A stretch of 64,000 nucleotides of DNA from assembly GCA_040954595.2 (NCBI GenBank), contig CM082588.2:3784156-3848155 (forward strand). Reading direction: 5' to 3'. The notes beneath the pieces were generated by a model that saw only the letters and a list, made by a program, of their open reading frames with translations, was not told the origin of the DNA and did not search any database. The position numbers were made by a program, and so were the translations under genes. This DNA is from Balanoglossus misakiensis. Its lineage: Eukaryota; Animalia; Hemichordata. Shown here piece after piece: positions 5,788 to 64,000 of the stretch (positions are counted from its first letter, which is position 1; every line of letters starts with the position of its first letter).

Positions 5788-7145
<1,358 letters not shown>

Positions 7146-44975: not shown

Positions 44976-47027
44976 ATGAGTTCGAAGTACTTACCGCGAT
45001 TGTGGACCAGATATCGCCCCAGTTTTTGCGGGCGTTTGTGTGGCTTCGATACAACACAATTGACCGCTGGTTCTGTGTCATACAGCGTTTGTGTACAGCA
45101 AAGGACTGATCGTGCAGCCTTGTTAGAAAGGTACGGTAAAAGCCGTTTGACGTGTCATTATCATTTTGCCAAAGAGGGACATGCTCTTCAAGGAGACACG
45201 GCACGGCCACTCCACCACCGGTACTCAACTCTGTGCGATGACCCCGTTGTATTCAAGGTCAAAGACCGACCGTCGATTTCTGCCACTCGCCGACGACCGA
45301 TCAGTTTCTTCGGCTTCGGATCGTCCGAGCAGAACGCCTGGCAGAAGGCGGTCTCGGAAGCCGAGAAGCTGGTCGGCTACCCGACGTCGTTCATGAGCCT
45401 TCGGTGTCTACTCAGCGACGAGCTGTCAAACGTGGCGATACAGGTCAGAAAGCTGGTCGGCACTAGGCATCCACTTCTGAAGACGGCAAGGTATGGTATG
45501 CCCATACACTCACGGTTGTCATTGGAGTACAGTTGCTTGTGATCTTGACTTGAGCTACTAGTACGCTACTCCAGCTAGTTACCATGGCACTATAATGCCA
45601 ATGTAATGGTGGCCACTTCTCTATTCACATGTTGAAAATTTCCAAGAGCATATACCAATAATAATATCATTATCTAATTTTGCAGGACATTTGTTTATGA
45701 TGGCAGAAACAATATGCAGACTCGTGGCCTGATTGTGCTGCTGATATCCAAAGCTGCAGGGCCAACCTCTGCAGCATCCACGTTAGGTGACGGTGTAGAA
45801 CCGAGCATCGTCAGTGGCATTTACGCCAGGTAAGCATTGAGAGTTACAAACAGTTTGTCTTAGAGTACCGGTGTCTCAGCCAGTATAACACTACCTTTTG
45901 TGTGTTTCCACGTCTCTGGCAGCCAAAGAGCTCTAGCGGAGATCACCGAAATGATCCACACGGCGTATTTAGTTCACAAGGGCGTGGTCAACCTGCGGGA
46001 CCTCACACCGGCAGACGGGCCGGAGAAAGACATGGAGTTTGGCAACAAGATGGCCGTGCTGAGTGGGGACTTCCTGCTGGCAAATGCTTCCACTGGACTC
46101 GCCGAGCTGCGTAATACTAAGGTAAGGGAATCTCATGGGAATTTTGAAAATCATAAATTCATGGGGAGAGGAACACATATTCTGTCATTTTCATTTTGTT
46201 TCATTTAGGTTGTTGAGATTGTTTCGAGCGCCATCAGAGACATGATGGAGGCAGAGTTCACTGGCTATTCCAACAGACAGACAGACTCCCCCGACAGGAA
46301 GATGGCTGTCTCTGATTGGTTGGAGTGGGCATTCCTGTCATCGGGCAGTCTAATTGCCAAGAGTTGTCAGGCGGCTCTCAGTCTGGCAAGTCACTCGGAC
46401 GAAATGCAGCAACATGCTTATGACTACGGCAAGAATATGTCCCTAGCACAGCAGGTGAGTTGTCATGTGCTCATATCAGTGTATTTGTGATAGACAGCCT
46501 CGTATTTAATACTCATCTTCAGCATCCACTATCAGAGATAGTTGTTCGCCATGACAGTCTTTTTGCTTTGTCTTGTTCAGTTATTCGCAGAATTATCCCA
46601 GTTTACCAATGGACCGTCGGCAGCACAGATAAATCTCAACTCTGTGCCAGTTTTGATGTTCCTTCAGTCCAAAGACGAGAATCACAATCTGGAGAGATAC
46701 AAGAAGAATGGTAAAATGGACTACAAAAGGGTATGCATGGTTATCATTATAAGTACAACTTTTCCCATCATTTCTAATGAAGGTAATTAAATAACCTAGC
46801 CGACTAGTCCAGCTGGCTCTCTACTTAATTGCTTTCATTTACTTTTAATTATCTTGCTTTTTTCTTTTCAGCTTCACACGGACATATCATCCAGCGATGC
46901 TATACACAGAGCCAGGTTGCTGTGTCACGAGTACGGACAGAAAGCATTGGAGGCCCTCAAGCCGTTCCCAGACAACGATGCCAGCAGAGCGCTTCAGAAT
47001 ATCATTCATGCGATCACTCGCAGATGA
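44976..47027 (+). CDS. PDSS2: All-trans-polyprenyl (decaprenyl) diphosphate synthase subunit 2; 6 coding exons, about 469 aa
   Basis: Exons 44976-45490, 45686-45829, 45923-46121, 46209-46454, 46581-46730 and 46872-47027, all GT-AG and phase-compatible, with TGA at 47025-47027. Motifs [90 protein letters not shown] and ASRALQNII. The first DDxxD motif is degenerate (LVHKGVVN), as in PDSS2 rather than PDSS1. Confidence 0.96.
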
Positions 47028-47837: not shown

Positions 47838-49868
47838 TCACATTTGCAAGTCGGCATACACAACATCCGTATCTTCCGAAACAATTTTCGGTTTGCGAGG
47901 TGACGATGACGTCAGATCCAAGTCAGCATACAGAAGTCCCTCTACATTCTTTACTTCTTTGACGTCATCGTTTGGAGGAGCGGAATCATCAATGGCAGTT
48001 AAGGGCGCATCCAAAACTTTGTCGGGGTGGGTTTCTTCGGGCTCCCCTGGAGGGCTGTACAAATCTTCCTCGCGTTGTTCATCAACATCATTTTGGCGTC
48101 TGTTCACGTTGGTGGGTTTTGGAGGAGGGCGTGGTTTCTTTACTACTGTGTACTCAACACCGACCAGGTTCTCCCTTTCCACGTCATCGTGCTTGTTGTC
48201 GTTGTTTGGAGTGACAGGATTGTCCTTGCTAAGTTGGGAAGTGTCCGATGTTCCAACAGAACTGGTTACTTCCGTCTGCGGAGGACTGTGTGAGTCATCG
48301 GGACCCCTGTCACTTTTTGGCTTGGGGAAAGGACGTGGCTTCTTGATCTCTGCGTACCCGACATCGATCAATTTATCCTCACCTCCCTCATCCATGACTT
48401 CACCGTCGTATATATTGCCGCCGGCTTCAGTAGCTTTCATTCCATTGTCTACCACTCGCATGCCCTCGATGGTACCCTGAATTTGCTCGCTGACCGTGTC
48501 GTATTCAACGCGCGTCTCAGGAGAGCCACGTGCGCCGCTGTTACCGTCTTTTTCGTTGGGTGCATTTTCTTCGAGTTGCACCTGCGTTGATGTGAAGGCG
48601 TGGTCGGGATTTTCCGCCAGTTTGCTGTTGCTTCTTCTGTGTTTAATGATACACACAATCGCCAAGACTACGATTAAAACTAATAGAAGTCCACCTCCTG
48701 CACTCGCACCAACGATTATGACGTCTACCCCAACTTGTGTGTCCAGTTTTGGTTGTTTTGAAGTTGCCTGTGACTGAGGCTGTGTCGCTATGGACGACAC
48801 AGGCGACCTATTAGTATTACCTGTCGTCGTTGGGGGAGCTATACTAACTGCCAAAAGAGACGAGATCTTCGTTGCACCGACGTCATTGGTAGCTTCACAT
48901 TCCACCAATGCATTGCGATCTTCATATCTTATAGATAGTATTGTCAGTGTTGAAATATTATCTGAAGCTTCAATGCGAAACATTTCTTGAGTGTCGTCAA
49001 TCAAATTAGTTCCAAAGTACCACTGAACAGAAGTGATCTCTGGGTTTGCATTCCATTGACAAGTAAATGTCCTGACTTCGCTTTCACTTCCTGGTTCAGT
49101 TCCAACCTGTTGGAGTGTCAGCTTGGGTTTGTATTGAATGTCAAATGGACCAATTTCACAGGTTTTGTCCTGCAAGTGGAAGGGACCCAAACGTCGTGAT
49201 GTACATGTTAATTTGATTCCCTGTTCAGTGAAGGTCGGTGACCAGATATAAAATAAATTCAACATGGAAATACTTCGCGATAAAGTGGTGTTCAGTTCGC
49301 GACCTGTGTCATTTTGTACAGACCAACTCAAGGTGACTTCCGGGTTTCCTTTCTCACAAAGGCAGCCCAAACTAACATCCTCACCTTCACGCACAGTTGT
49401 ATCGATATACGTGCAAAATGGGTGTGTAGGAGGAGGGTCTTTACGGACAGTCAAATATGCGTCGTCGGATCGTAGTATTTCTGTTCCAGGTTCACCATTG
49501 GTTACATCGTTCACGTAGCATGCGTAAACGCCACTGTCTGGTCCAGCATAGTCGTGTTGTACGTTCAGTATACGCAAGTTTAGATCCAAGGAATTTTGAG
49601 CCGTCGGTATTAAGTGAACACTATAGTCTGAATCAACACCCAGGTGTGATGGCAAGTTCTGAATCATGCTTGACTGCGCTGATATTTCCACTCCATTTTT
49701 TCTCCAATGGTGTCGATAACTATGACTGTTGTTAGCGATGGCACAATACAGAGTAATAATCTCGTTTTCCTCCGCGGTGGTGTTCATTGGTGTTTCTGTG
49801 AACACGAGTTGACAACTCACAATCTGCCAGGAAAGTCCAATAACACAAACCAAGTAAAGCATATCCAT
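47838..49868 (-). CDS. IgR-A: type-I TM IgSF receptor with uninterrupted CDS (signal peptide, V + C2 + C2/I Ig domains, S/T stalk, TM) and a long ITIM-rich tail, about 676 aa
   Basis: ATG at 49868 gives signal peptide MDMLYLVCVIGLSWQIVSC. Ig hallmarks TLYC...W...DSGVYAC, SLGC...LSW...LTC and FTC...QWY...VEC. TM VIIVGASAGGGLLLVLIVVLAIVCII followed by KHRR. Tail motifs VEYDTV, VGYAEI, VEYTVV, LLYADL, VVYADL. Confidence 0.92.
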   Translation of the reverse strand: MDMLYLVCVIGLSWQIVSCQLVFTETPMNTTAEENEIITLYCAIANNSHSYRHHWRKNGVEISAQSSMIQNLPSHLGVDSDYSVHLIPTAQNSLDLNLRILNVQHDYAGPDSGVYACYVNDVTNGEPGTEILRSDDAYLTVRKDPPPTHPFCTYIDTTVREGEDVSLGCLCEKGNPEVTLSWSVQNDTGRELNTTLSRSISMLNLFYIWSPTFTEQGIKLTCTSRRLGPFHLQDKTCEIGPFDIQYKPKLTLQQVGTEPGSESEVRTFTCQWNANPEITSVQWYFGTNLIDDTQEMFRIEASDNISTLTILSIRYEDRNALVECEATNDVGATKISSLLAVSIAPPTTTGNTNRSPVSSIATQPQSQATSKQPKLDTQVGVDVIIVGASAGGGLLLVLIVVLAIVCIIKHRRSNSKLAENPDHAFTSTQVQLEENAPNEKDGNSGARGSPETRVEYDTVSEQIQGTIEGMRVVDNGMKATEAGGNIYDGEVMDEGGEDKLIDVGYAEIKKPRPFPKPKSDRGPDDSHSPPQTEVTSSVGTSDTSQLSKDNPVTPNNDNKHDDVERENLVGVEYTVVKKPRPPPKPTNVNRRQNDVDEQREEDLYSPPGEPEETHPDKVLDAPLTAIDDSAPPNDDVKEVKNVEGLLYADLDLTSSSPRKPKIVSEDTDVVYADLQM

Positions 49869-49965
49869 GACTCCAACTTGATCGACCAACGAAAAAGTAC
49901 CGTTCGTCCACTCTAAGTCTAGTCTCCAAAAGAGCAATGTTAACGCCTTCGCCTCGGTGCAAATC

Positions 49966-49984
49966 GTTTCCTCAATCCGGGTTA
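49966..49984 (-). promoter_or_regulatory. Conserved upstream element of IgR-A (two ETS-like cores)
   Basis: Plus-strand GTTTCCTCAATCCGGGTTA; near-identical copies upstream of IgR-B and IgR-E. Confidence 0.55.
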
Positions 49985-50132
49985 TGTTACACTTTTACTG
50001 TTAAACAGGTATGCTATCTCTTTGATATGCAAATTGATGTTTAAATGGTGGAGTTAGGTGCACCGGTGAACCGGGCTTCGTGCTGTAGAAATAAAAGCGG
50101 AAATACATAGTGTTTTACTCCTCAATAGATCT

Positions 50133-51686
50133 CTACTTTATTAGACTCTCATAGGTGGCCACATTTTCTCCATGGCAACTGTCTCCACGCACAAGCACAG
50201 CATACCCTTCCTCGTTAACGATATCCAATTCTCCATCCCCGCTGTTGCTAGCTTGCTTGACGGTTTCATATGTAGGGCTATTCTTTTCTGCCATCTCAAG
50301 GCTGGTTTTATTCTTTGACCCAGTGTTGGCGTGTATTTCTTTGACATTACTGACAACATAGTCCTTTGAACGAGGATCTTCGCTCTGGGTGTAGTTAGCT
50401 AGGTATCGGATACGACGACAAGCTTTGTAGAGGAAGAATGCAAGAATTACCGCGGTGGCAAATGTCAGAGCAAACAAACCACCCAAAACAGCCACGACTG
50501 AATTGTCACTGTCAGTCTTGTTGTACAGTTTGGCAGATGCTGTGTTAAGATACACTAAAGATGTTGTTTCCACTGTCACAATGCTTGTTTGCAACGATAA
50601 ACCGTTGCTTGTCTGCGTCACAGTCTCTCTCTTGGATGTTGGGAATGGAGTCAAAACACTCAACAAGGACGAGATCTTCGTTGTACCGACGTCATTGGTA
50701 GCTTCACATTCTACCACTGCATTGCGATCTTCATATCTTATAGATGTTATTGTCAGTGTTGAAATATTATCTGAAGCATCAATGCGAAACCTTTCTTGAG
50801 TGTCGTCAATCAAATTATTTCCAAAGTACCACTGAACAGAAGTGATCTCTGGGTTTGCATTCCATTGACAAGTAAATGTCCTGACTTCGCTGTCACTTCC
50901 TGGTTCATCCCCAACCTGTTGGAGTGTCAGCTTGGGTTTGTATTGAATATCAAACGGACCAATTTCACAGGTTTTGTCCTGCAAGTAGAAGGGACTTGAA
51001 CGTCGTGATGTACAGGTGAATTTGATTCCCTGTTCGGCAGTGTAGTTCGGTGACCACATATAAGACAAATTCAACATGGACGTACTTCGCGATAAAGTGG
51101 TGTTCAGTTCGCGGTCTGTGTCACTCTGTACAGACCAACTCAGGGTGACCTCGGGGTTTCCTTTCTCGCTGGTGCAACTCAAGCTAACTTCTTCGCCTTC
51201 ACTCACTGTTGAATCGATATAAGTGCAAAATGGGTGTGTAGGAGGAGGATCTTTACGAACAGTCAAATATGCGTCGTCGGATCGAAGTATCTCCGTACCA
51301 GGTTCACCATTGGTTACATCGTTCACGTAGCATGCATAAACGCCACTGTCTGGTCCAGCATAGTCGTGTTGTACATTCAGTATTCGTAGGTTTAGATCCA
51401 AACTAATTTGAGCCGTTGGTATAAGGTGAATACTGTAGTCAGAATCAACACCAAGATGTGCTGGCAAGTTCTGAATAATGCTTGACTGCGCTGATATTTC
51501 CACTCCATTTTTACTCCAGTGGTGTCGATAAGTATGACTGTTGTTAGCGATGGCACAATACAGAGTAACAATATCGTTTTCCTCAGCGGTGGTGTTCATT
51601 GGTGTTGTGGTGAACACAGGTTGACTACTTACAATCTGCAAAGACAGTTCCAGAATGCAACATGCAAGTAAGCCGAACGCTTCCAT
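50133..51686 (-). CDS. IgR-B: type-I TM IgSF receptor with uninterrupted CDS; ectodomain paralogous to IgR-A; short tail with hemITAM-like NEEGYAVL and terminal YESL; about 517 aa (alternative ATG at 51728)
   Basis: Signal peptide MEAFGLLACCILELSLQIVSS; three Ig domains about 89% identical to IgR-A by manual count; TM VVAVLGGLFALTFATAVILAFFLY; stop TAG at 50133-50135. Confidence 0.92.
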   Translation of the reverse strand: MEAFGLLACCILELSLQIVSSQPVFTTTPMNTTAEENDIVTLYCAIANNSHTYRHHWSKNGVEISAQSSIIQNLPAHLGVDSDYSIHLIPTAQISLDLNLRILNVQHDYAGPDSGVYACYVNDVTNGEPGTEILRSDDAYLTVRKDPPPTHPFCTYIDSTVSEGEEVSLSCTSEKGNPEVTLSWSVQSDTDRELNTTLSRSTSMLNLSYMWSPNYTAEQGIKFTCTSRRSSPFYLQDKTCEIGPFDIQYKPKLTLQQVGDEPGSDSEVRTFTCQWNANPEITSVQWYFGNNLIDDTQERFRIDASDNISTLTITSIRYEDRNAVVECEATNDVGTTKISSLLSVLTPFPTSKRETVTQTSNGLSLQTSIVTVETTSLVYLNTASAKLYNKTDSDNSVVAVLGGLFALTFATAVILAFFLYKACRRIRYLANYTQSEDPRSKDYVVSNVKEIHANTGSKNKTSLEMAEKNSPTYETVKQASNSGDGELDIVNEEGYAVLVRGDSCHGENVATYESLIK

Positions 51687-51776
51687 TATTGAACAGTTTC
51701 TCTTTGCTAAAGCGATAGGTATAATCATTCATAGACAGCAGAGTACTGTCTATATGGTGTAACTCAGTGTTGTGTT

Positions 51777-51794
51777 GTTTCCTTGATCCGGGTA
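51777..51794 (-). promoter_or_regulatory. Conserved upstream element of IgR-B
   Basis: Plus-strand GTTTCCTTGATCCGGGTA, 91 nt upstream of ATG 51686. Confidence 0.55.
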
Positions 51795-53108
51795 TGTTCA
51801 ACCATACTGTACTACATCAATATATAATTGATATGCTAATACACTGGTCCCATTAGAAAGAAACTGCTCTTCGCCAAAAAGCACCCAGAACAACACACAT
51901 GTACTTAGAATGGCATCATGAACGGGTTGTTGCCATACTTTTGAGGGTACAGCAGTCATCTTTCGTGACTTAATTTCACATCTTGGGGTCGATATATTCA
52001 GTTTGCAGAATGTGTATACATGTACCAGTTTTTGGTTTCAGATGTGGAGGTTGGTCAGTTTATGTCGCATTGGTCTACATGCAATAATGTGAAAGGGAGC
52101 GGTCATTGTGGCTTAAGTGGTCAAGTCATGATGAATCTATTGTAAACAAGTTAAGTATGTTTCTGAAAATAACTTTGTGGCCCATTGAAATTACTGTCTG
52201 TACAGCCGTATTCAAATAAAGACGAGGGTCAAATCAGGTCAACTTCTCTTTGTTGGCAGAATGCACTGAAACCTTTCAGTGTATGAGTTATTGTTCGGCG
52301 TTTTGTCTTAACAAAAAAGATAAATTTAAAAAATAACTTCGGATCATCAGAGAGTCCAATTAACAGGTTAAATTGTGTGAGTCTTAAAGTTTAAATAGGA
52401 GAATCTCGTCCTGAGATTTAACTTCTCTGTCGCTGCTACTTATAAATGCATTTCGTATTCAGTACACAGATCACGTATGGAAAAGTTGATGTAAAGAGGA
52501 CTTACCCTCGTGGCCGCCTATTTTTCATTGTAACACAACGACCTCTCGAACACACATACACACAAGGCCTTAAGAAACCACTTAAGTCGAAATGGGGGGT
52601 TTGAATCAAAAGTCAGTTGCTCACGGAAGAAAAAAAACGCCAGGGGTGTTTTTTAAATGTTTACAGCGTGACTCAAGCTTCTAAGTGAGTTTCTCTTCTA
52701 TATCACCCGTGGATTGTTCAACACACGCAGTCGTGTGTATCGATGAATAAACTTTATTGACATCTCCAGATATAGTTATAAATGCAAAAAATATTCAACA
52801 CAAAAATATTACATACAAATACCTAAAATTCATTGATATACACTTAACAACGATGCATTTTTCTAAGATGCACTATTCTAAGTACGTATGCTGTGACATC
52901 ACAAAACTTACTGAATTTGTAAAGTTCCAAATAAATACTGGTATGCAATTTTGTACTTATCGCTTTGCTGTTTGAAGTTCTGAATAAATATGCAATTTCG
53001 CAGTTTCCTTTTTGCTGTAAGAGAATTCTCTTCCCCTCTCTCTGCCCCTTTCCCTCCCCTATCTGTCTGTCTGTCACTTAAATGTGGTGAGCTCTGCATT
53101 TTCGTTCA

Positions 53109-55142
53109 CTAAAAAGAGTTTTCATCTTCCAGTGTTATTATCGTGTTGTCCTCGCAAGACTGCGCGTCTTCCTGCGCGGTGACTTGGTCCGTTTCCATGA
53201 CATCCATGAGAATATCATCACACTTGGAAGGCAGTGGGGGTGGCGGCGCATCTGCGCTCTCTTCCTCCCCTCCGACGTTATCATTGACTGTCCCGGTCTG
53301 GCTGTGATCTGTGTCGCCTGCAGGTTTTGGTTTCTCCCGTTTCAGGGATCTGTCTGGCTGGGCATACAGATCGGCAGTTTCCGTGTCGGTGTTTGTCGTG
53401 TTTTCTGCGCTTTCCTCGATTTGCGAAATTGATGGATCGACGCCATCTTGTGCCGACATTTCCGTCATCTCTTCGCCGTCGACGGCGAAGTACGGGTTCT
53501 CGTATCCCGCTTCCTTCAGTCGCAATCGGAGATTCTCAAGAGACTCCTCCTGCGGGGAATACTCGTCTGCGTTTTTCTGTCGCCGTTTGCGATTGTTTGC
53601 CATCAGGAGGATGGCGAAGATAATCGTGAAGGCGATCAAGGCCAACAGACCGATCACTACGGCGACTATGATCACCCACAATTCAGTCCCCGTCGAGGTT
53701 GGTTGTCTGTCAAAGCCCCGGCCGACAGTCGGCGATTCTTTTCTGGTTGTGGCCGTTCGGGTGGTTGGCACCTCTGGTTGTGGTGATGATCTGAGATTAC
53801 TGCGAGAAGTTGCTGTGTCTGATACCATCACAGTGCTCAGTTGCTGGGTCTGTGTGCTTGGTTTGATTGGCGACTTTGTAGTTCGATGACTAGTAGTAAT
53901 AGTGTCCCGTGTTGTACGGCCACTTGTTGGAGTGCTCCTGTGCGTTGTAAAGGCAGCTGCGGTGGTACTTATTCGATTATCCCCGGTCGTTTGTTGCGAT
54001 GTGCGTTCTGATGTCTCTTCGGGTGGGCTTGTGGATGTCACTGCTCCGGTACTACTTTCATGTGTCGGCGCGATGGTTGACGAACTGGAATCCGTCACGT
54101 ATCTCCCAACTGTCAACTGTATCGCTTTGAACCAATAGTAAACACTGTTGGGAAATTCTACACCACATTTGTACAGTCCACTATCATCAGGTTTAACGTA
54201 ATCGAATATAATGTTATAATCGTTGGGAAAATTACTTAACTCGACGGCAATAGGCAATTCATCACCATGTGCATCATGGTATTTCACAAATTCATTCCAT
54301 GCGAAGCTTTGAGTGTCTTTATGCCATACCAGGTTCTGACCAGGTTGTAGCTCTGTCACCTCACACCGTAATTCGTAGGTCTCATTTTCAACAGCATATT
54401 CATGAATCGTTTCGATATCGGCACTTTCTACGACTGTCAGCCATGCAGGCCGCGACCACTCGATGTCACCAAACTCGGAGTCTACCCCACACCTGTATAT
54501 ACCTGTGTCTTGGACTGTGACGTTCGAGATACTAATGTTGTATTCGCCTTGCGTGTAGTCACCCATAAAACTAACACGACCAGGAAAGTTGTTCATGTCC
54601 TCGACAGTGTCGTTGAAAGTAAATATCTCCGAGTCCTTACTCCAGCGGAGATTTGGGTTGGAACCTATGATATTGATGCCACATGACAGTAACGCCGTTC
54701 CCCCTTCATACATTCCTGAACTACTTGGATGAAGGATAATATGTTCCGATACAGTGAGTGTGGCTCCACCAGACCAGACGAGCTCACCGGTGTCGTATCG
54801 AACACCACACCTATAAACACCACTGTCTTGAACTTGAACGTTGGGGAACTGAATACTAGTATTGTACCGCCCTCGTTGGCGGTTCATGTCGACAGTAAAC
54901 GGGGAAACACTCGGGTTATGAACACGGAGCTCATCGATTGAAATGATCAGGTCGTCTTTCTTCCACAGCAAGGATTGGTCAGCCATGAGTCCATCTACAC
55001 TACAAACAAGTGTCACAATTTCGTTCACAGATACATGGATATTGCTGGGTTCCTCGATAAAAGTCACTGACTGTACATAGGAGAGGCAAACCACCACCAA
55101 CAGAATAAGCAGACAGCGTTTATTTCCACCTTGGGAAAGCAT
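53109..55142 (-). CDS. IgR-C: type-I TM IgSF protein with uninterrupted CDS; three V/I-set Ig domains, long mucin-like S/T stalk, acidic tail; 677 aa
   Basis: Signal peptide; three repeats of C...W.KD...D(S/T)G.Y.CGV (DSGVYRC, DTGIYRC, DSGLYKC); TM LWVIIVAVVIGLLALIAFTIIFAILLMA then NNRKRR; tail GYENPYF, DLYAQP, PPPPLP. Confidence 0.92.
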   Translation of the reverse strand: MLSQGGNKRCLLILLVVVCLSYVQSVTFIEEPSNIHVSVNEIVTLVCSVDGLMADQSLLWKKDDLIISIDELRVHNPSVSPFTVDMNRQRGRYNTSIQFPNVQVQDSGVYRCGVRYDTGELVWSGGATLTVSEHIILHPSSSGMYEGGTALLSCGINIIGSNPNLRWSKDSEIFTFNDTVEDMNNFPGRVSFMGDYTQGEYNISISNVTVQDTGIYRCGVDSEFGDIEWSRPAWLTVVESADIETIHEYAVENETYELRCEVTELQPGQNLVWHKDTQSFAWNEFVKYHDAHGDELPIAVELSNFPNDYNIIFDYVKPDDSGLYKCGVEFPNSVYYWFKAIQLTVGRYVTDSSSSTIAPTHESSTGAVTSTSPPEETSERTSQQTTGDNRISTTAAAFTTHRSTPTSGRTTRDTITTSHRTTKSPIKPSTQTQQLSTVMVSDTATSRSNLRSSPQPEVPTTRTATTRKESPTVGRGFDRQPTSTGTELWVIIVAVVIGLLALIAFTIIFAILLMANNRKRRQKNADEYSPQEESLENLRLRLKEAGYENPYFAVDGEEMTEMSAQDGVDPSISQIEESAENTTNTDTETADLYAQPDRSLKREKPKPAGDTDHSQTGTVNDNVGGEEESADAPPPPLPSKCDDILMDVMETDQVTAQEDAQSCEDNTIITLEDENSF

Positions 55143-56464
55143 GATGATCGGCGAATCAATGTCGACACGAAGACTTGTTTCTGGAACTGAATAATCCCTG
55201 GCACGGCGGCGACTTCTTAATCTGTGTGCGCGGGTGTGGTAACATCTGAATGCTGCATGACTGACTGTGTTTTGGCAGGGCGATACTTGTATTCAATTCT
55301 CCCCGAAGAGGGCAAATAATAGCCACGCCTGAATCACCGCCACTGAGATGACTGCTGTCTTTGTGCTCGGGTACTCACGTGAACAATAGCCAACGAAGGT
55401 AACCGATGAGTTGGAATTTTCATAATCGCGAGGCCAAGCCCCTTGCCTATTACGAAAGCAAGCGGCGGTAAACACCGTCATTTATCATCATCATCGTCAG
55501 TGAAAGTGTCCCGGGCAAGTCGGGTCTTGACAGCTTGCAACGAGAAGAGGGCAAAGCAGCGGTCGTTGAAATCCCCACAAGTGTTTACTGCTCTATTGTG
55601 ACCGCGTAGCACGTTGAAAGACTTATTAAAAGGTCATTCTCGACTGTGTATAGGGCTGGCATTGGTCGAGGCTTGTGAAGGGTGGGGTAAACGCCCTCAA
55701 CCCCCGCGTATGACGAGATGGGCGTGTCTGCGGTCAAATGTATGATTCACTGGAGAGGATAACTGAACGCCCAGTGAAACATTTTGGTTAATATTTGGGT
55801 GCAAAGCGGTGGCTGTAAACAAAATAAGGTGGATAAAACAGTAAAAATGTTGACTCTAGGTTGAAAACGCCATCACATGTTGTGGCTTGTGCCTACAGAG
55901 CTTGAAGTTAAGTGCTCATTTGATGTGCCGGATCTTTTCGGTGATCCCTCTCCCGGTTCACAGAGTTCAAAGTTCATTCTGGTTGAGATCCTCAGATGTG
56001 AACCTATCTTTCATCGCCCTTTCTCCAAACAATGTTCACGAAGTACGAAGTAAATGGGGACACGGATTCAACCACCTGTGAATGTGTCCGCCCAGGTTTT
56101 TTTTTATTTGAACACACGCATATTTAAAATGTGCGTTTGGGTATTGAATGACACACAAAGACGATTCTCAAGATCAGTCGTACATGTCGGTTGACCTGAC
56201 GAAAGATGACCTAAATACGGCCGAGTAGATGATCACAAACTGAGTACAAATAGAAAACCTAGTGGCCAAGTATTACCAAAATTATCGAATACTAATTTTA
56301 TTAGTACACAATCACCCCAGTAAACTATTATACACACAGTCGATATTGCCTTATATGTTACCCGCAAAAATGATGCCAAAATAAATGTACAGACATACTA
56401 CTAGACTTGTTTGATTGAATGTGCAATTAAAATAAATTCACATTAATAATTATGCGCCTGATAT

Positions 56465-57982
56465 TCACTTCTTCCCAGTGGTAAGTTTGGTGTAGACTTC
56501 ATTACTTGGCCCTGTCAGACTTTCATATTGGCCGTCTGGTGCTCCGCCGGCTGTCTCCGGCCTGACCTGGACACGGTTGTTGTCTTGGCTGGTTTCTGTA
56601 GGACGGGCTGAAGGGATAGCGTCGGAGGAGGTTCCATTTGTCTCAGCTTCTAACTGAAAATAAACAGGTGTATTTTCTTGGCTGGTGTCGTTTCCAGTTC
56701 GAGGGGCCGACGGGGCACCGTTGTGCTGGCTTTCGTTTGAGTCCGGAATGATTTCAATGTAAGAGCGCGTAGTTTCTGATCTGGCCGCCCTGTCGGTCGT
56801 CGGGTTGGGCGGAGGTGTTCCCGGCTCGGGGCGGATGTAGTTATACTCGTCTTCGCTTTTGGGCTCAGGTCTTGCGTACGAGTACGTCAAGACATTGCTG
56901 AACTGTTCTCCGGTCGCCTCTCTACTCTGACCCTTTCCATCTTTTAATTTCAGCCCCTTGCACTTGATGATGACAGCTCCGACGAGAACGGTGACCAGGG
57001 AGCCGAGAAGGAGACCGCCGACGAGAGAACCGATGACTGACCACGGGGGTTTGTTGGCGGTCTGACGAGCAAAGGTGCCGTGTACGGTGGAGTTTCGCGT
57101 CGAAGTATATGCACTTGAACGCGGAACAGTAGCCGTGTTCGTAGTCAGAGATCCTTCAGTTGAAAGAGAAGTCGTTGGATTCTCTGCGATGACGTAAAAG
57201 GGCCCTACAGAGCACGAGCGATCCGCTTGAAGCCCCGGATGTTGCAAAGTGCAGGTGAACTGAAAATTCAACAGACGAGCCGATGTCGGAGTCCACTCAT
57301 ACGAATCTACTCGCAACCCGTCTCCCCGTGTATAAGAATACGATTGGAGAATTACCCGTTGGTCGCTGCGACGCCAGTTCAAATTCACGGCGGGAAAACC
57401 GGGGTCTGATGTACAGAGCAAACGAACGGTCTCTCCGAGTGTGAATTTAACGGGTGTGTTCGTCGTATCGACATAACGACCATCCAAATGAACCATCGAA
57501 CACTCTGGATAAATATTTCGAGGAACCGCATATACGGTAACCGTGGCATCCGAAGACATTCCCACTAATGGACTCGCCTGTTGTTGATTAGTTAGAGTCC
57601 TGTAGACTGCGCAGGTGTATTGGCCACCGTCCATTTCTGCCGTTCCTGTGGTAATACCAAATACGAGTAAACCATAGGTATTTTCTGCGCCGGTTGAGGT
57701 CACCAAGTATCTCTCGTCGGTGCCCCCGACATTTTGTCGCATCTGGTAATTATCACTCACGATGACGCCATTTTTCAACCAGGACACATACTCGTCAGTA
57801 GCGAGGGTGCCAGCTAACTTGCAGGCCAAGTAAAAAGATCTGGCCGAACCCCCGTATTGGACAAAAACTTCCTGGTCGCTGGGTTCGACTGCGAATAACC
57901 CGTTGGTGTTTCCGACCAACACGCACAGGCAAACCAACAGCCGCAACCACACCGGACAATTGCCAAGTCTTTCAGCGGCCAT
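56465..57982 (-). CDS. IgR-D: type-I TM IgSF receptor with uninterrupted CDS (V + C2 domains) and a canonical C-terminal ITAM, about 505 aa
   Basis: ATG at 57982 gives MAAERLGNCPVWLRLLVCLCVLVGNTNG; Ig cores YLAC..SWLKNG..DGGQYTC and LLC..LNW..FTC; TM WSVIGSLVGGLLLGSLVTVLVGAVII; tail ends DGQYESLTGPSNEVYTKL. Confidence 0.92.
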   Translation of the reverse strand: MAAERLGNCPVWLRLLVCLCVLVGNTNGLFAVEPSDQEVFVQYGGSARSFYLACKLAGTLATDEYVSWLKNGVIVSDNYQMRQNVGGTDERYLVTSTGAENTYGLLVFGITTGTAEMDGGQYTCAVYRTLTNQQQASPLVGMSSDATVTVYAVPRNIYPECSMVHLDGRYVDTTNTPVKFTLGETVRLLCTSDPGFPAVNLNWRRSDQRVILQSYSYTRGDGLRVDSYEWTPTSARLLNFQFTCTLQHPGLQADRSCSVGPFYVIAENPTTSLSTEGSLTTNTATVPRSSAYTSTRNSTVHGTFARQTANKPPWSVIGSLVGGLLLGSLVTVLVGAVIIKCKGLKLKDGKGQSREATGEQFSNVLTYSYARPEPKSEDEYNYIRPEPGTPPPNPTTDRAARSETTRSYIEIIPDSNESQHNGAPSAPRTGNDTSQENTPVYFQLEAETNGTSSDAIPSARPTETSQDNNRVQVRPETAGGAPDGQYESLTGPSNEVYTKLTTGKK

Positions 57983-59089
57983 TGTGACGTCTGTCTTCAA
58001 TGAATGTTTGCCGTTACCTTCGCTTCCCCTTGTTGTCTCTGCTGGGAGGGCGACGGACAACTTTATCAAAAGGAAAGAAAACAAACATTTTAAAACCTGA
58101 TCCGACACACGGTTAACCCATTAAAGCCGACTTCTACCATTTTTTTCTAACTGCCTTGCATATACATACAGCGAATGTGTACTTACCATTGACGTTGCCT
58201 TCTACGTGCCAAATAGTGTTGGCATGCGTCGCGGTAACCTTTGACCCGGTAACGCAGAGCCCAAGACGAAGGTCGCGTAGCAACCATGCAAGAAAATCAA
58301 AAGTAGCCTAGTTGAACAGTTATTCAAACAAACTCGTTGGGTTCTTCGCGCACTTAAAATTCACGACGCATTTCTTTCTGAGGAATTCACCCCCAAACCA
58401 CTTGGCATGAAAACCCGTACAATGGGCTGGATGTATTGTTGAAATTGGGAACACATTTGACTAAGAATAGGTTTATAAACTAAAAAAAGCATCACGTGTC
58501 CCGAGTGAATGCACCTGACAAAGAGAGAGCCTAAATAGGAAGGACAGAGGACCCGGCATTTAGCCAAGAGGACACCATTACCAAAGTGTTCATTGGAGAT
58601 TCTTTACAACAGACATTTTAGTGAAGTCACTCTCCCGGCTTGATTGGCTAACAGTATGTCAGCCAAAATAGAAGTGCTCTTAGTACATTTTGCCAACAAA
58701 TGGATATTTCTTACCTTTTACTTGTGGCGTTTTAGCGCTGGTCGCGTTACTCAATATTAGACGACATGTCACACGGCCTGTCAGTTGTCCGGCTTTAGGC
58801 TATCTGTTTATTTATTTATTTCACCACCATGAAAAGAGTGACAACGACAGAGAAATGATAAAAAATACAATTGGGCACGGTGTGGATCATTATCATGGTG
58901 CTGATTTACCGTCTGCCCTCGAAAAACAACACACGCTTCCATTCTCGACACATTTTGTTAATTTTATCGGGATATAACCACACACGCTTATAAATGGTCA
59001 CGTACTGATGAGATCAACATCACCTCGTGCGTGTGTGTATATGAATGGTTTCTAAACGATCTGTTCCAACGAACCCCAAGGTGATACCT

Positions 59090-61216
59090 TTACATCCTTA
59101 ATTCGGCGTAAACGACGTCATCATCTTCGATTCTTGGCTTCGTGGTGTGACGTCCTGGTGTCACATTTGACAGATCCAGGTCAGCGTATGTCAAGCCTTC
59201 AACGTTTCTAGATCGACGGTCGTCACCTCCGTCCGCGTTCTGTCGCTGTCCCGGGGACTCGAGCACATCGTCGTACACTGGGTTTCCCGGAGATGGCTGT
59301 GTCCTCCGCTGTGGGTCTGTGTCACGGCCTCCGTGCTCCGATTGGCCACTGACGCTTCTTCGACTCGCCGGAAGATCGGTAACGTTTTCATAAGTGGCTC
59401 CTGCCCGATTGTCGACGGTCACGCCACGGGCTCCAATACGATTGGGCTTAGGCTTGACGTCTGGTTGCTTGTTCCCGCTCTCGACTCTTGTGTGACCTGG
59501 CCTGTTTGCGTCATCTTCGGGAGAATTGTCCGAATTGGCCTCGTGGTCTTTACCGTCACTAATGGCCAGTTCCAACGTTTCGGTTGACGGTTCCACAAAG
59601 TTCCTGCCCTTCTCTGAGACATGCTGGCTTTTTATATTGCTCGCCACATCCACATTTTCAGTGGCGTTGCTGTTCGGGTCTTTTTTACGCGTTACCTTTG
59701 CCTTGAGCTGGATGTCTATTGAAGCTGCATTGACCGAGTTTTCAGACGCATTCCTGTAAGCGACGTTGACCACCGCATACGTCTCGGCAACATCGCTGGC
59801 GTCCCGGCCAATTTCGCCTTTCTCGCCGTCTTTGACATCGCGCTGCTGCGTTGATTTTGTTGACTCGGTGCTCTGTCGGCGTTTTTTTACCACGACTACG
59901 ACGATTACTACAACCCCACCGGCCAACAGGATCAAACCACCCGCTACCACACCGGCGATAACCCCGGTGTCCAGGCGTTGATCAACCGCCGGAGCCAAGT
60001 CTCCTTGGATTGGAGCGGTGGTCGTGCCATAGACATCGGTTGTACTTTCCGTTGTGTCCAAGTCGCCTGCTGCTGTTGTTGTCGCACGTGTACTTCTTTG
60101 TATCTCCGTGGTAACCGGTGGGATGTCAACAACAAAACTGACATTGGCACTGCCAGTCCCTATGCCATTGGTCATTTCACATCTTACCTGATGAAGGCCA
60201 TTTTCCTGGTTACCGAAACCAGAACTCCGCAGTGAAAGATTCTGTAAGCTGAACCGACCATCCCCGGGGGTCACTGCCTCGTCATCGTAAAACCACTGGA
60301 TTTGTGTGACGTCAGGGTTCGAATCTGGAATACAGGTAATGGTGATGACGTCTTCCGAAGACGTCAAGAATTCCCTCGTCGCGTTTGCCTCTACCGTCGG
60401 TGCGTACTGGATGTCAAAACCTCCCACGCTGCAAGTTCTGTCCGACGTCATTCCGGGATGTGATAGGGTGCAGGTGAAATTTACACCTGGGTCATCGAAT
60501 CTAGACGGTGTCCACGCATATGTAATGAACAGCAAACCGTCGCCAGTGGCCCCGGATTGGTCCCTTTGCAAGGGGTCGTCGACATCATTCCGACTCCAGT
60601 ACATGGTGACAGTAGGGTAACCGGGGTCTGAGAAACATGTCAGGGTATACGTGCCTCCTTCACGAACTGCGATCGGTATCGACGTCGCCAGGCCGAAACC
60701 GAGCGAATCTGACGCCGTGCACATGGGGAACTCTGGCCGAGGAACTTCGTAGATAGTCACAGTGGCAACTCGCGACGTTTCAACCACGTAATCACCTACT
60801 GTTGTTATTGCGCATTTGAAAGGACCAACGTCGGTGTATGCAGTGTCCCTCGTTACGCCATACACTACCAGAGAGTAGCCAACGCTATTACCGAGATAGT
60901 TTACATCAGTCAGAAAGTACCTGTCCCTATCGACGATATACTCACTTATGGAACGAAAGTTCTTATTATCGGCAAAGATGATGTTATTCTTGTACCACGA
61001 TATCTTCTGATCCGTGTCCAACGTCGATACGATGCAGTACAAACTGAAAGACCTAGTTTGTCCTGGTTCAATGGTGACCGTCTGGTCTTGTGGTTCAAAT
61101 ACAAAAAGCTGCTCGGCGAGCGAGGTGTCCGGCCAACTTGCCAACAGGAACGCCCCGACGACTAAAATTGCTCTGGTCTTGCGTGAAGAACTCGTGTGCC
61201 CCATCGAGACCTCCAT
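59090..61216 (-). CDS. IgR-E: type-I TM IgSF receptor with uninterrupted CDS (V + C2 + C2/I), long tail with two C-terminal ITIMs, 708 aa
   Basis: Signal peptide AILVVGAFLLASWPDTSLA; three Ig domains; TM VIAGVVAGGLILLAGGVVVIVVVVV then KKRR; tail YENV, YDDV, LTYADL, VVYAEL. Confidence 0.92.
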   Translation of the reverse strand: MEVSMGHTSSSRKTRAILVVGAFLLASWPDTSLAEQLFVFEPQDQTVTIEPGQTRSFSLYCIVSTLDTDQKISWYKNNIIFADNKNFRSISEYIVDRDRYFLTDVNYLGNSVGYSLVVYGVTRDTAYTDVGPFKCAITTVGDYVVETSRVATVTIYEVPRPEFPMCTASDSLGFGLATSIPIAVREGGTYTLTCFSDPGYPTVTMYWSRNDVDDPLQRDQSGATGDGLLFITYAWTPSRFDDPGVNFTCTLSHPGMTSDRTCSVGGFDIQYAPTVEANATREFLTSSEDVITITCIPDSNPDVTQIQWFYDDEAVTPGDGRFSLQNLSLRSSGFGNQENGLHQVRCEMTNGIGTGSANVSFVVDIPPVTTEIQRSTRATTTAAGDLDTTESTTDVYGTTTAPIQGDLAPAVDQRLDTGVIAGVVAGGLILLAGGVVVIVVVVVKKRRQSTESTKSTQQRDVKDGEKGEIGRDASDVAETYAVVNVAYRNASENSVNAASIDIQLKAKVTRKKDPNSNATENVDVASNIKSQHVSEKGRNFVEPSTETLELAISDGKDHEANSDNSPEDDANRPGHTRVESGNKQPDVKPKPNRIGARGVTVDNRAGATYENVTDLPASRRSVSGQSEHGGRDTDPQRRTQPSPGNPVYDDVLESPGQRQNADGGDDRRSRNVEGLTYADLDLSNVTPGRHTTKPRIEDDDVVYAELRM

Positions 61217-61306
61217 TCGTATTCCTTACAGTTAGAATTAGTAGTGAATGGTCAGGGCGATGACATTTCCTACGTGACGTTGACGCCCTTTTCGTGCAGG
61301 TATGTC

Positions 61307-62432: not shown

Positions 62433-64000
62433 TCATGTTGTTACATTGGCTGAGTCGTGTGAAGGGTTGACCCACAGCGTGCTCAAACATTTTGCCTCCT
62501 GCAAAACAAGAAAACAATAAAAAATCCATGATGAATGGCCACGAAAAATAGTGACGCAATGGGACAACGATGTCTTCTCTTGTAATGTTTCATGTCCTCC
62601 CCAGGAAGTCCTCAGAGATTACTTGGGAGGAAAATATTATCGTTGATATTTGCACAAACAGTGGTCTCTAAACTACTAACCTTAATGACGCAATCATCCA
62701 AGATTGACTTCATTGTCAGTGGTAACGGCTTAGGGGGTGGGTGTGGCGAAGTCTCATGTTCTGAGCTTTCACTCTGTTCTGCTGACTTTATTCTCCTGTG
62801 AATGAAAAAAAATAAACGGTTTATATTCACAAAATAAAACAAGTTGCTCACAGAAGAAAAGCACAGCAGTGTCTGTCTACCTTTGGGGCTTTTTCACACT
62901 TGGATGTGGCGCTCACCTTTTGCCAGAAGACCCCCTGCTGTGTCTGCTGCCGCTCTTCGATGACGTCATACTTTTCTTGCTGCTGACGGTGCTGTAGACC
63001 GACCTGTGTTCCGAGAGTTCGTCTATTGCGGACAAGGGTGCCGATGGGTTGGCCGACCCGACTGTGCTCGGCAAAGCCAGGTAGCCGGTGGATTTGTCCT
63101 CCTCCAGAGGGGGTAAGTTGAGTTCTGGGGGTCCAGCTGCCCTTGGGGGTGAGGGTAGTACTGGATATTTTTGCTTTGGTTCATGGGAGACCATGCTTAT
63201 CTGAAGGGGGAGAAAGAATAAAAATGAAAATTCTATCGTGTTGGGGTATACTGTACCAGAATACAATAAATAGCATTTTTAGGTGTTTGGACAGAAACCT
63301 GATGTGCGACAGAAGTTTTGTACTTACAAGTTCTCCAATATTTGGTCCTTCTGTCATCCAAGCGAAATCTTCTTTCTTATCAAGAATTCTGAAAAATGAG
63401 AGAACAGAAACCCATAAAGAACAAATCTTGCTGAGTAGATTACATCACTAAGTAATATGATTACACCAACACTGTGGGGTTTGGCCTTTCTAGGTGACAA
63501 CATACCTGTGTGTAGCTGCCTGGTGGGCCAGCGCGTACTCGTACATTGTCCGGAGACGTCGCCTCTCGAAGTCTCGGATCCTGGCCCTCAACCGCATCTC
63601 TTCGTTCAACCGGATCATCTCGGGGTCTTCCTTCTTCGGCGCCAGGTCTAACGTGAACGTCGCTAGTTGCGGAAGCTCAATCTGGGATGCACAAAAAATA
63701 CACAGGGCGGAAATGCCAAAATTCATTGATGTGCAGTTGCAAGTGTGTCACATGCAATAAAGTGACATTCAAATGTGAAGCACAGAAAAAAGTCAAGAAG
63801 CCAAAATGCACACAGACGAGTTTCCAATACAACTGTACACAGAAGTGGTCACCAACACAGGTTGGACTGTATTCTGAAATATGCACTGACATACCTTGGG
63901 AAATCTTTGATCCACAGCCAGTGCCTTTGGGTGGATGGATGTTCTCCGTCCCTTCACAGGCGTTGCTAAGTAACTGGAAGGACCTTGCTGAGCCTGGATG
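62433..64000 (-). CDS. 3' coding exons of an unidentified multi-exon gene (5' part beyond the right edge)
   Basis: Phase-compatible GT-AG exons: >64000-63895, 63681-63506, 63388-63328, 63200-62917, 62795-62681 and 62498-62433 (TGA). They give ...IHPKALAVDQRFPK-IELPQLATFTLDLAPKKEDPEMIRLNEEMRLRARIRDFERRRLRTMYEYALAHQAATHR-ILDKKEDFAWMTEGPNIGEL-ISMVSHEPK...PLPLTMKSILDDCVIK-EAKCLSTLWVNPSHDSANVTT*. Candidate AATAAA on the minus strand at 61648-61643. Confidence 0.8.

What the first reader, a model, noticed from the sequence alone, without database searches (positions are those of the whole stretch)
56483..56536. Textbook ITAM at the C-terminus of IgR-D, paired with ITIM-bearing IgR-E
DGQ-YESL-TGPSNEV-YTKL matches (D/E)xxYxxL-x7-YxxL exactly. 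The tail has further tyrosine motifs (EDEYNYI, SYIEI, VYFQL). The D ectodomain aligns best with neighbouring E (EP.DQ.V, RSF.L.C, SW.KN, ATVT.Y.VPR..P.C, C.SDPG.P.V...W.R.D, GDGL....Y.WTP, FTCTL.HPG...DR.CSVG.F), and E ends in LTYADL and VVYAEL. This makes a second, much older pair; D lacks the third Ig domain.
Basis: partly seen in the sequence, partly recalled or inferred. Interest (0 to 1): 0.75.

Follow-up and report, generated by a model that had tools for sequence, protein, structure and literature searches.

The report
Acorn worm on/off immune receptor cluster
An acorn worm gene encodes a cell-surface immunoglobulin-type receptor ending in a textbook activating motif (ITAM) that recurs in a related gene of another acorn worm, and it sits among relatives ending in twin brake motifs (ITIMs), so the cluster likely works as an on/off signalling set like those of vertebrate immune cells, though not as a closely matched pair.

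Summary
The ITAM is real: 56483-56536 (minus strand) reads DGQYESLTGPSNEVYTKL, five residues before the stop of an intact, intronless Ig receptor (D); shuffled tails give it 46 times in 100,000. The host is an acorn worm (neighbouring mGluR1 84% to Ptychodera flava). A P. flava family member carries a homologous C-terminal ITAM (same spacer, 6 of 18 non-motif residues identical), apparently beside the orthologue of E, and another carries the twin-ITIM tail of E and A. So both tail types are conserved between species. The 'D-E pair' is only partly supported: D and E are nearest within the window and split before the two species did, but they share only 42-43% of their Ig domains, show no gene conversion, and trees do not resolve D's sister. 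Best reading: a lineage-specific cluster of activating and inhibitory receptors on a Kirre/Neph-like ectodomain, with tails re-attached to different ectodomains. Syk binding, ligand, cell type and immune role are untested. ITAM/ITIM Ig receptors are known from Hydractinia, oyster, amphioxus and Botryllus; my searches found none described in hemichordates. The scan noted another ITIM/ITAM pair elsewhere in this genome.

The parts
56465..57982 (-). Gene D coding sequence, one open frame (505 aa from the Met at 57982): signal, V-type Ig, C2-type Ig, stalk, TM, ITAM tail
   Evidence: no indel in the coding part in the second haplotype's contigs (table 4)
56483..56536 (-). ITAM of D, DxxYxxL-x7-YxxL, five residues from the C-terminus
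   Evidence: homologous motif in P. flava P0129
56468..56965 (-). Cytoplasmic tail of D: 8 tyrosines, three further YxxI/L motifs, a juxtamembrane Cys, no ITIM
56966..57037 (-). Transmembrane segment of D, uncharged, with GxxxG-type spacing
   Evidence: hydropathy
57044..57187 (-). S/T-rich stalk of D where relatives have a third (I-set) Ig domain
57188..57526 (-). D domain 2, CD80-like C2-type Ig
57527..57901 (-). D domain 1, V-type Ig
56297..56302 (-). AATAAA polyadenylation-like signal 163 bases past D's stop
59090..61225 (-). Gene E open frame: V-C2-I Ig, stalk, TM, long tail with twin ITIMs; orthologue of P. flava XP_070550467.1
59099..59194 (-). Twin ITIMs of E (LTYADL, VVYAEL; tyrosines 26 residues apart)
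   Evidence: same module in A and in P. flava P0210
53109..55292 (-). Gene C open frame: three V-type Ig domains, stalk, TM, tail with neither ITAM nor ITIM
50133..51728 (-). Gene B open frame: V-C2-I, TM, short tail ending YAVL-x13-YESL (spacer too long for an ITAM)
47838..49994 (-). Gene A open frame: V-C2-I 83-92% identical to B, tail homologous to E's, five ITIM matches including the terminal pair

Best explanation
D is a single-pass Ig receptor with a conserved C-terminal ITAM, encoded in a cluster with twin-ITIM relatives (E, A), and it likely signals as an activating receptor that the ITIM members likely counterbalance. Inferred mechanism: ligand binding at the V domain clusters D; a Src-family kinase phosphorylates the two ITAM tyrosines; the tandem SH2 domains of the single invertebrate Syk (or Shark) dock on them and drive engulfment or an effector response, probably in phagocytes; E and A, once phosphorylated, would recruit SHP/SHIP phosphatases. 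The balance is likely set by the cluster as a whole, not by a matched D-E pair sharing one ligand. Shown: motifs, frames, topology, fold, conservation of both tail types in P. flava. Inferred: phosphorylation, kinase and phosphatase binding, sign of the signal, cell type, immune role.
For: Motif exact and rare by chance. Of the 150 listed profile hits (of 847 at E<=0.001), D's last 60 residues match best the C-terminus of P. flava P0129 (score 52; mean 23.2, sd 4.5), which holds a strict ITAM with the same 7-residue spacer and 6 of 18 non-motif identities (P 0.0017) (tail z 4.9, 3 of 1000 shuffles). The last 60 residues of A and E match best P. flava P0210 (80 and 75; means about 24), which has the same twin-ITIM module. 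P0129 and E's orthologue P0123 share a contig length of 771,148 and close accession numbers, so they are likely neighbours as D and E are. The ITAM is in the receptor's own tail and the TM is uncharged. Precedent: oyster CgIgR binds CgSyk and promotes phagocytosis (PMC6994640, passages); Hydractinia Alr tails carry ITAMs and ITIMs; Syk is listed for sea urchin and amphioxus (PMC13344425 section 5); acorn worms have coelomic phagocytes (PMC10210618, passage).
Against: No binding, expression-site or functional data. Syk was not shown in this genome (none held) nor named for a hemichordate in the passages read. P0129's database model has no transmembrane segment, so it may be a faulty or chimeric model, and its V domain groups with P0143, not with D. 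The ectodomain's best structural matches are adhesion proteins (Rst, SYG-1, Neph1), not immune receptors. Amphioxus SYK suppresses NF-kB (PMC13344425 abstract), so ITAM need not mean activation. Sparing of the ITAM in the second haplotype is not significant (0 of 23 against 5 of 57 codons changed, p 0.31).
Confidence: 0.55

Rival explanations
1. The cluster encodes Kirre/Neph/nectin-like adhesion or cell-recognition proteins whose tyrosine motifs steer the cytoskeleton or clearance of cell debris in nerve, epidermis or the filtration organ, not defence against microbes.
For: AlphaFold model of D's ectodomain (pLDDT 93) matches Rst, SYG-1 and Neph1 D1-D2 best (Foldseek E 6e-14; Z 15.8, rmsd 4.8, 199 aligned; 14.9; 14.7). 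Database names of the relatives are 'kin of IRRE-like', 'cell adhesion molecule', 'nectin-3-like'. V-domain differences between haplotypes are mostly silent (2 changed codons, 5 silent), unlike a pathogen-chased surface.
Against: Identity to those structures is only 19-23%; sequence search of the PDB ranks CD276 and nectin-3 first. D has two Ig domains and ends in an ITAM; true Kirre/Neph proteins have five Ig domains and a PDZ-binding end (recalled). Lineage-specific tandem expansion, fast divergence (E is 52.6% to its orthologue against 84% for mGluR1) and opposing tails fit immune receptor clusters.
Confidence: 0.2
2. D and E are a strict paired receptor: E is an inhibitory receptor for a self ligand that microbes exploit, and D is its activating decoy for the same ligand.
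For: Adjacent, same strand, opposite tails, best mutual match in the window; same V-domain clade 94/96; AU test does not reject D+E+E-orthologue (p 0.38); a distant activating member with 32% V-domain identity exists in the CD200R family (PMC3664923, passage).
Against: 42-43% identity, saturated synonymous sites and no DNA-level match between D and E, whereas paired receptors typically keep 80-93% through gene conversion. The conversion-like signature is in A/B (90.5% over 981 bases, Ig region only). D's sister is unresolved.
Confidence: 0.12
3. The ITAM binds Syk but dampens rather than activates signalling in this animal.
For: Amphioxus SYK inhibits MyD88-dependent NF-kB activation (PMC13344425, abstract and passages).
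Against: That inhibition runs through a hemi-ITAM on MyD88, not a receptor ITAM; oyster ITAM-Syk signalling is activating; dedicated ITIM receptors lie beside D.
Confidence: 0.08
4. The motif is a chance match in a tyrosine-rich disordered tail, or D is a dead copy.
Against: P 0.0005 by shuffling; homologous motif in P. flava; frame open over 505 codons and no stop or indel among the 33 coding differences analysed from a second haplotype.
Confidence: 0.03

Closest known systems
Ptychodera flava XP_070550477.1 (P0129), XP_070550467.1 (P0123), XP_070568247.1 (P0210): automatic database models
   Same: Same V-C2(-I) family; P0129 ends in a homologous ITAM, P0123 is E's orthologue (52.6% over 506 aa), P0210 ends in the twin-ITIM module of A and E.
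   Different: Named only as adhesion-molecule-like; P0129's model lacks a TM and has four Ig domains; P0123's model stops before any terminal ITIMs; P0210 has a distant ectodomain.
Hydractinia Alr family (10.1101/2022.03.04.482883; passages read)
   Same: Clustered single-pass IgSF genes; 14 Alr tails with ITAMs and 2 with ITIMs; Syk and Shark proposed as readers.
   Different: Alr domains are atypical V/I-set plus an Fn3-like fold and serve allorecognition in a colonial cnidarian; no Alr relationship was seen here, and D's domains have the canonical cysteines.
Oyster CgIgR (PMC6994640; passages read)
   Same: Ig receptor with an ITAM in its own tail; Syk binding and phagocytosis shown there.
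   Different: Five Ig domains; no ITIM partner cluster in the passages read; no homology to D tested.
Vertebrate paired receptors (CEACAM1/3, SIRP, CD200R, Siglec; PMC5112662 and PMC3664923, passages)
   Same: One cluster, opposite tails, V-type N-terminal domain; CEACAM3 also carries its ITAM-like motif in its own tail.
   Different: Those pairs keep about 80-93% ectodomain identity by gene conversion; D/E have 42-43%. The genes here have a single coding exon.
Kirre/Neph/SYG-1/Rst D1-D2 (PDB 4of8, 4of3, 4ofd)
   Same: Best structural match of D's two domains.
   Different: 19-23% identity; D has two Ig domains and an ITAM tail.
Botryllus FcoR (PMC12582321, passages) and amphioxus ITAM-R (PMC13344425, passages)
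   Same: Invertebrate deuterostome receptors with ITIM, hemITAM or ITAM tails.
   Different: FcoRs carry hemITAMs and work as co-receptors of fester genes; the amphioxus ITAM-R is described as TCR-like; no homology to D tested.

Membership tests
ITAM-bearing receptor | Yxx[I/L]x6-9Yxx[L/I] in a cytoplasmic tail (consensus as) | tested here: met
   YESL-x7-YTKL, preceded by Asp at -3, after the TM
ITAM-bearing receptor | Motif conserved in relatives | tested here: met
   P. flava P0129, same spacer and C-terminal position; orthology to D not shown and that model lacks a TM
ITAM-bearing receptor | Dual phosphorylation and binding of Syk/ZAP-70/Shark tandem SH2 | not testable with these tools
   needs binding assays
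ITAM-bearing receptor | Syk or Shark encoded by the host | not testable with these tools
   no genome held; Syk listed for sea urchin and amphioxus; invertebrates said to have one Syk-like gene plus SHARK (PMC10253181, passage)
Paired receptors (strict) | Opposite signalling tails in related genes of one cluster | tested here: met
   D ITAM; E and A twin ITIMs
Paired receptors (strict) | Highly similar ectodomains (about 80-93%), often kept by gene conversion | tested here: not met
   D/E 42-43%, dS saturated, no blastn match; met by A/B (83-92%), but B has no canonical ITAM
Paired receptors (strict) | The two genes are each other's closest paralogues | tested here: inconclusive
   closest in the window; with P. 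flava genes D's sister is unresolved
Paired receptors (strict) | Co-expression in immune cells and a shared ligand | not testable with these tools
   no tissue data
Kirre/Neph (IRM) adhesion proteins | D1-D2 fold of V-type plus CD80-like C2 domain | tested here: met
   Z 15.8, rmsd 4.8, 199 aligned to Rst
Kirre/Neph (IRM) adhesion proteins | Five Ig domains and a C-terminal PDZ-binding motif (recalled) | tested here: not met
   D has two Ig domains and ends TTGKK
Hydractinia Alr family | Atypical Ig domains lacking the paired cysteines, plus an Fn3-like fold | tested here: not met
   Cys and Trp of both domains conserved; no Fn3-like region between C2 and TM

The most novel reading that the evidence does not exclude
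Acorn worms built their own activating/inhibitory immune receptor system from a Kirre/Neph-type adhesion ectodomain, in single-exon genes, with two old tail modules (an ITAM and a twin ITIM) that are kept across species and re-attached to different ectodomains without exon shuffling. It would be the first ITAM/ITIM immunoreceptor cluster described for hemichordates and a direct test of whether Syk/SHP switching on Ig receptors predates chordates in the deuterostome line.
Probability: 0.3. Interest if true: 0.72.

Novelty: new member of a known kind. Interest (0 to 1): 0.5.

Why it matters
ITAM/ITIM Ig receptor clusters are documented in a cnidarian, a mollusc, a tunicate and vertebrates; hemichordate immunity is described as little known (PMC10210618, passage) and three searches found no paper on hemichordate ITAM receptors (library limits apply). 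This cluster fills that branch with concrete, short, intronless genes whose tails can be tested at once in chimeras. It also shows tails outlasting their ectodomains: the same twin-ITIM tail sits on three dissimilar ectodomains (A, E, P0210) and the same ITAM tail on two (D, P0129), which bears on how unrelated receptor families keep arising on one conserved signalling core.

Tried and rejected
No whole genome held, so Syk/Shark/SHP and further paralogues could not be sought. Word-index search with D: none of 7,993 candidates passed; with a six-sequence alignment: 1 of 7,994, a fish nephrin; both are insensitive here. None of 8 exact look-ups of the window's proteins was in the collection. Sequencing runs: no RNA holder listed. 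Complex prediction of a D ectodomain homodimer: no answer, score 0.00, neither for nor against. PDB sequence search with D's last 26 residues: 0 matches. Atlas with P0129: generic Ig clusters at 0.88-0.90 only. My first motif scan of the 150 hits required a TM and so missed P0129; the rescan without it found strict ITAMs near the C-terminus in 3 of 150: P0129 and two distant unnamed proteins, P0223 and P0269, whose motifs differ in spacer or position. AU rejection of 'D+E alone' (p 0.0002) is trivial, because E has an orthologue in the set. A possible 5' non-coding intron of D (GTAAGT at 58186) was not supported: no joint, and an X3 contig reads into it. B as a second ITAM receptor: rejected on spacing (13 residues); B-D tail likeness is weak (22 of 5,000 shuffles, one of ten tail pairs). 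Block duplication of an E-D unit to give A-B: gene order (E, D, C, B, A) does not fit simply. Barclay and Hatherley 2008 was not held. Searches of earlier findings near this place, by words and by sequence returned nothing.

Full report
Observation. Window 56483-56536 on the minus strand translates to DGQYESLTGPSNEVYTKL, then TTGKK and a stop. It ends the tail of gene D, an open frame of 505 codons from the Met at 57982 with a signal-like start, a V-type and a CD80-like C2-type Ig domain, a 48-residue S/T-rich stalk and one uncharged transmembrane segment. The motif fits the published ITAM consensus Yxx[I/L]x6-9Yxx[L/I] (10.1101/2022.03.04.482883, passages). Shuffling D's tail 100,000 times gave the strict motif 46 times, 7 times in the last 30 residues.

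Setting. D is one of five intronless, same-strand Ig receptor frames (5' to 3': E, D, C, B, A; 47838-61225) next to a polyprenyl-synthase (PDSS2-like) gene. The mGluR exon at 5.8-6.6 kb is 84% identical to Ptychodera flava over 98% of the query, 87% to Saccoglossus and 81% to Glandiceps over about 80-90%, against 60-73% for most vertebrate hits; the host is therefore an enteropneust, and none of 8 exact look-ups was in the collection. A and E share a homologous tail (z 10.5) ending in twin ITIMs although their ectodomains are only 24-40% alike; A and B share 83-92% of their Ig domains but not their tails, with a DNA match of 90.5% over 981 bases confined to the Ig region. B ends in YAVL-x13-YESL, too widely spaced for an ITAM; C has neither motif.

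Relatives. A profile of the V+C2 region of D, E, B and A found 847 proteins at E<=0.001, of which 150 were listed. Of 20 looked up, the closest single-unit hits are P. flava models. P0123 (XP_070550467.1) is E's orthologue: 52.6% over 506 residues including the start of the tail, 100/99 in the trees; its model stops before any terminal ITIM. P0129 (XP_070550477.1) ends in a strict ITAM with the same 7-residue spacer, six residues from the C-terminus. Against the C-termini of all 150 hits, D's last 60 residues score best with P0129 (52; mean 23.2, sd 4.5), and 6 of 18 positions outside the motif-defining residues are identical (P 0.0017 on tail composition; ITAMs share preferences, so this overstates a little). 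P0123, P0143 and P0129 share a contig length of 771,148 and close accession numbers, so they are likely neighbours (inference). P0210 (XP_070568247.1) carries the twin-ITIM module of A and E (scores 80 and 75; means about 24) on a distant ectodomain, on a 44.3-Mb contig of the same length as that of P. flava mGluR1. Caveat: P0129's model has no transmembrane segment and may be faulty or chimeric; P. flava DNA could not be read here.

Is D paired with E? Trees used 19 of the 150 hits plus four window genes, 10 hits plus four, and separate V (16 rows, with C's three domains) and C2 (13 rows) sets. D, E, P0123, P0125, P0129 and P0143 group together apart from A/B at 90/77 (76/91). In the V tree D joins E, P0123 and P0125 at 94/96 while P0129 joins P0143; the C2 tree is unresolved. 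AU tests reject neither D+E+P0123 (p 0.38) nor D+P0129+P0143 (p 0.11). D and E split before this species and P. flava did, and their synonymous sites are saturated, so 'much older' is right. But paired receptors are described as keeping 80-93% of the ligand-binding domain through gene conversion (PMC5112662, passages) or about 90% (PMC3664923, passages; one CD200R relative has 32%). D/E have 42-43% and no DNA match. The pattern is better read as two conserved tail types distributed over several ectodomains.

Second haplotype. Contigs of three coded runs of one sample differ from the window by a few percent. One search showed 40 of 80 difference rows; I analysed 35 (five upstream of the Met left out). 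The 33 coding differences in 30 codons include no stop, and no indel is listed in D's coding region. In the one contig whose 12 differences are all listed, the ITAM-to-stop stretch has 0 of 23 codons changed in residue (one silent change) against 5 of 57 just upstream; p 0.31, not significant. Run X3, recorded as DNA by guess, joins across two GT..AG gaps in the neighbouring PDSS2-like gene that X1 and X2 do not show, so it may hold spliced RNA; one of its contigs covers D's ITAM and 3' end (56138-56705). This is a weak hint only, since X3 also covers non-coding stretches.

Fold. The AlphaFold2 model of D's ectodomain (30-row alignment, pLDDT 93.4) is two Ig domains. Best matches are Rst, SYG-1 and Neph1 D1-D2 (Foldseek E 6e-14 to 7e-11; Z 15.8/rmsd 4.8/199 aligned, 14.9, 14.7), ahead of nectin-3, butyrophilins and antibody V domains (Z about 13). 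Sequence search of the PDB ranks CD276 and nectin-3 first. The ectodomain thus resembles adhesion and B7-type V-C2 proteins; fold gives no function.

Mechanism. Most likely (0.55): clustering of D lets a Src-family kinase phosphorylate the ITAM, Syk or Shark docks by tandem SH2 and triggers engulfment or an effector response, while E and A recruit SHP/SHIP; the twin ITIMs lie 24-26 residues apart, a spacing I recall as typical of tandem-SH2 phosphatase ligands. All these steps are inferred from vertebrate pathways and from oyster CgIgR-Syk (PMC6994640, passages). Syk is listed for sea urchin and amphioxus (PMC13344425, section 5); PMC5978004 (passages and the text of one supplement) ties Syk to Bcl10-bearing lineages but its species figure is a picture I could not read, so hemichordate Syk was not confirmed. 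Rivals: adhesion or debris clearance outside immunity (0.2), strict decoy pair (0.12), inhibitory ITAM as suggested by amphioxus SYK suppressing NF-kB (abstract and passages; 0.08), chance or dead copy (0.03).

Known and new. ITAM and ITIM tails on clustered Ig receptors are reported for Hydractinia Alr, ITIM/hemITAM for Botryllus FcoR (PMC12582321, passages), an ITIM LRR receptor and an ITAM-R for amphioxus (PMC8211107 passages). Searches for hemichordate+ITAM+ITIM+immunoglobulin (1 unrelated paper), Ptychodera+immune+ITAM (0) and Saccoglossus+ITAM (3, none on such receptors by title and passages) found no description in acorn worms; subscription papers are mostly outside the library. PMC2413239 (passages) notes that pairing in invertebrates has no clear continuity with vertebrates.

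Verdict. Observation confirmed; interpretation partly supported. A new member of a known kind, in a branch where I found none described, with cross-species conservation of both tail types and an easy experimental path. Interest 0.5.

Noticed in passing
window 47838-51728 (-): Genes A and B share 90.5% DNA identity over 981 bases confined to the three Ig domains, with unrelated tails (twin-ITIM against YAVL-x13-YESL); dS is 0.31-0.37 in V and C2 but 0.09 in the third domain, hinting at a later partial conversion. This is the closer fit to a strict paired receptor.
   Followed up: partly
window 47838-61225 (-): All five receptor frames run from signal to tail without an intron, in a genome whose neighbouring genes are spliced; origin by retroposition and tandem copying is possible but untested.
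   Followed up: no
window 53109-55292 (-): Gene C has three tandem V-type domains, a long S/T stalk and a tail with YENPY and a poly-proline stretch but no ITAM or ITIM; no close relative among the 150 hits.
   Followed up: partly
window 5785-6621 (-): First coding exon of a group I metabotropic glutamate receptor (mGluR1-like), used to place the host among acorn worms.
   Followed up: yes
window 44943-47024 (+): Spliced polyprenyl-synthase gene (PDSS2-like by my reading; PF00348 on two exons); two of its introns are joined in run X3.
   Followed up: partly
window 62913-63747 (-): Two exon-like frames of an unidentified gene upstream of E (a charged coiled-coil-like stretch and a Ser-rich end); no Pfam match above cut-off.
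   Followed up: partly
P0121, P0122 (Glandiceps, Saccoglossus 'hemicentin-1-like'): Long proteins made of 10-17 near-identical repeats that match this family's C2(+I) unit.
   Followed up: no
P0223, P0269 (unnamed Logan/ENA proteins): Distant V-C2-TM proteins with strict ITAM matches in short tails; taxon unknown, possibly further invertebrate ITAM receptors.
   Followed up: no
P0123, P0125, P0129, P0135, P0143 (P. flava models): Several database models of this family look truncated (no TM or shortened tail), so the family's signalling tails are probably under-annotated.
   Followed up: partly
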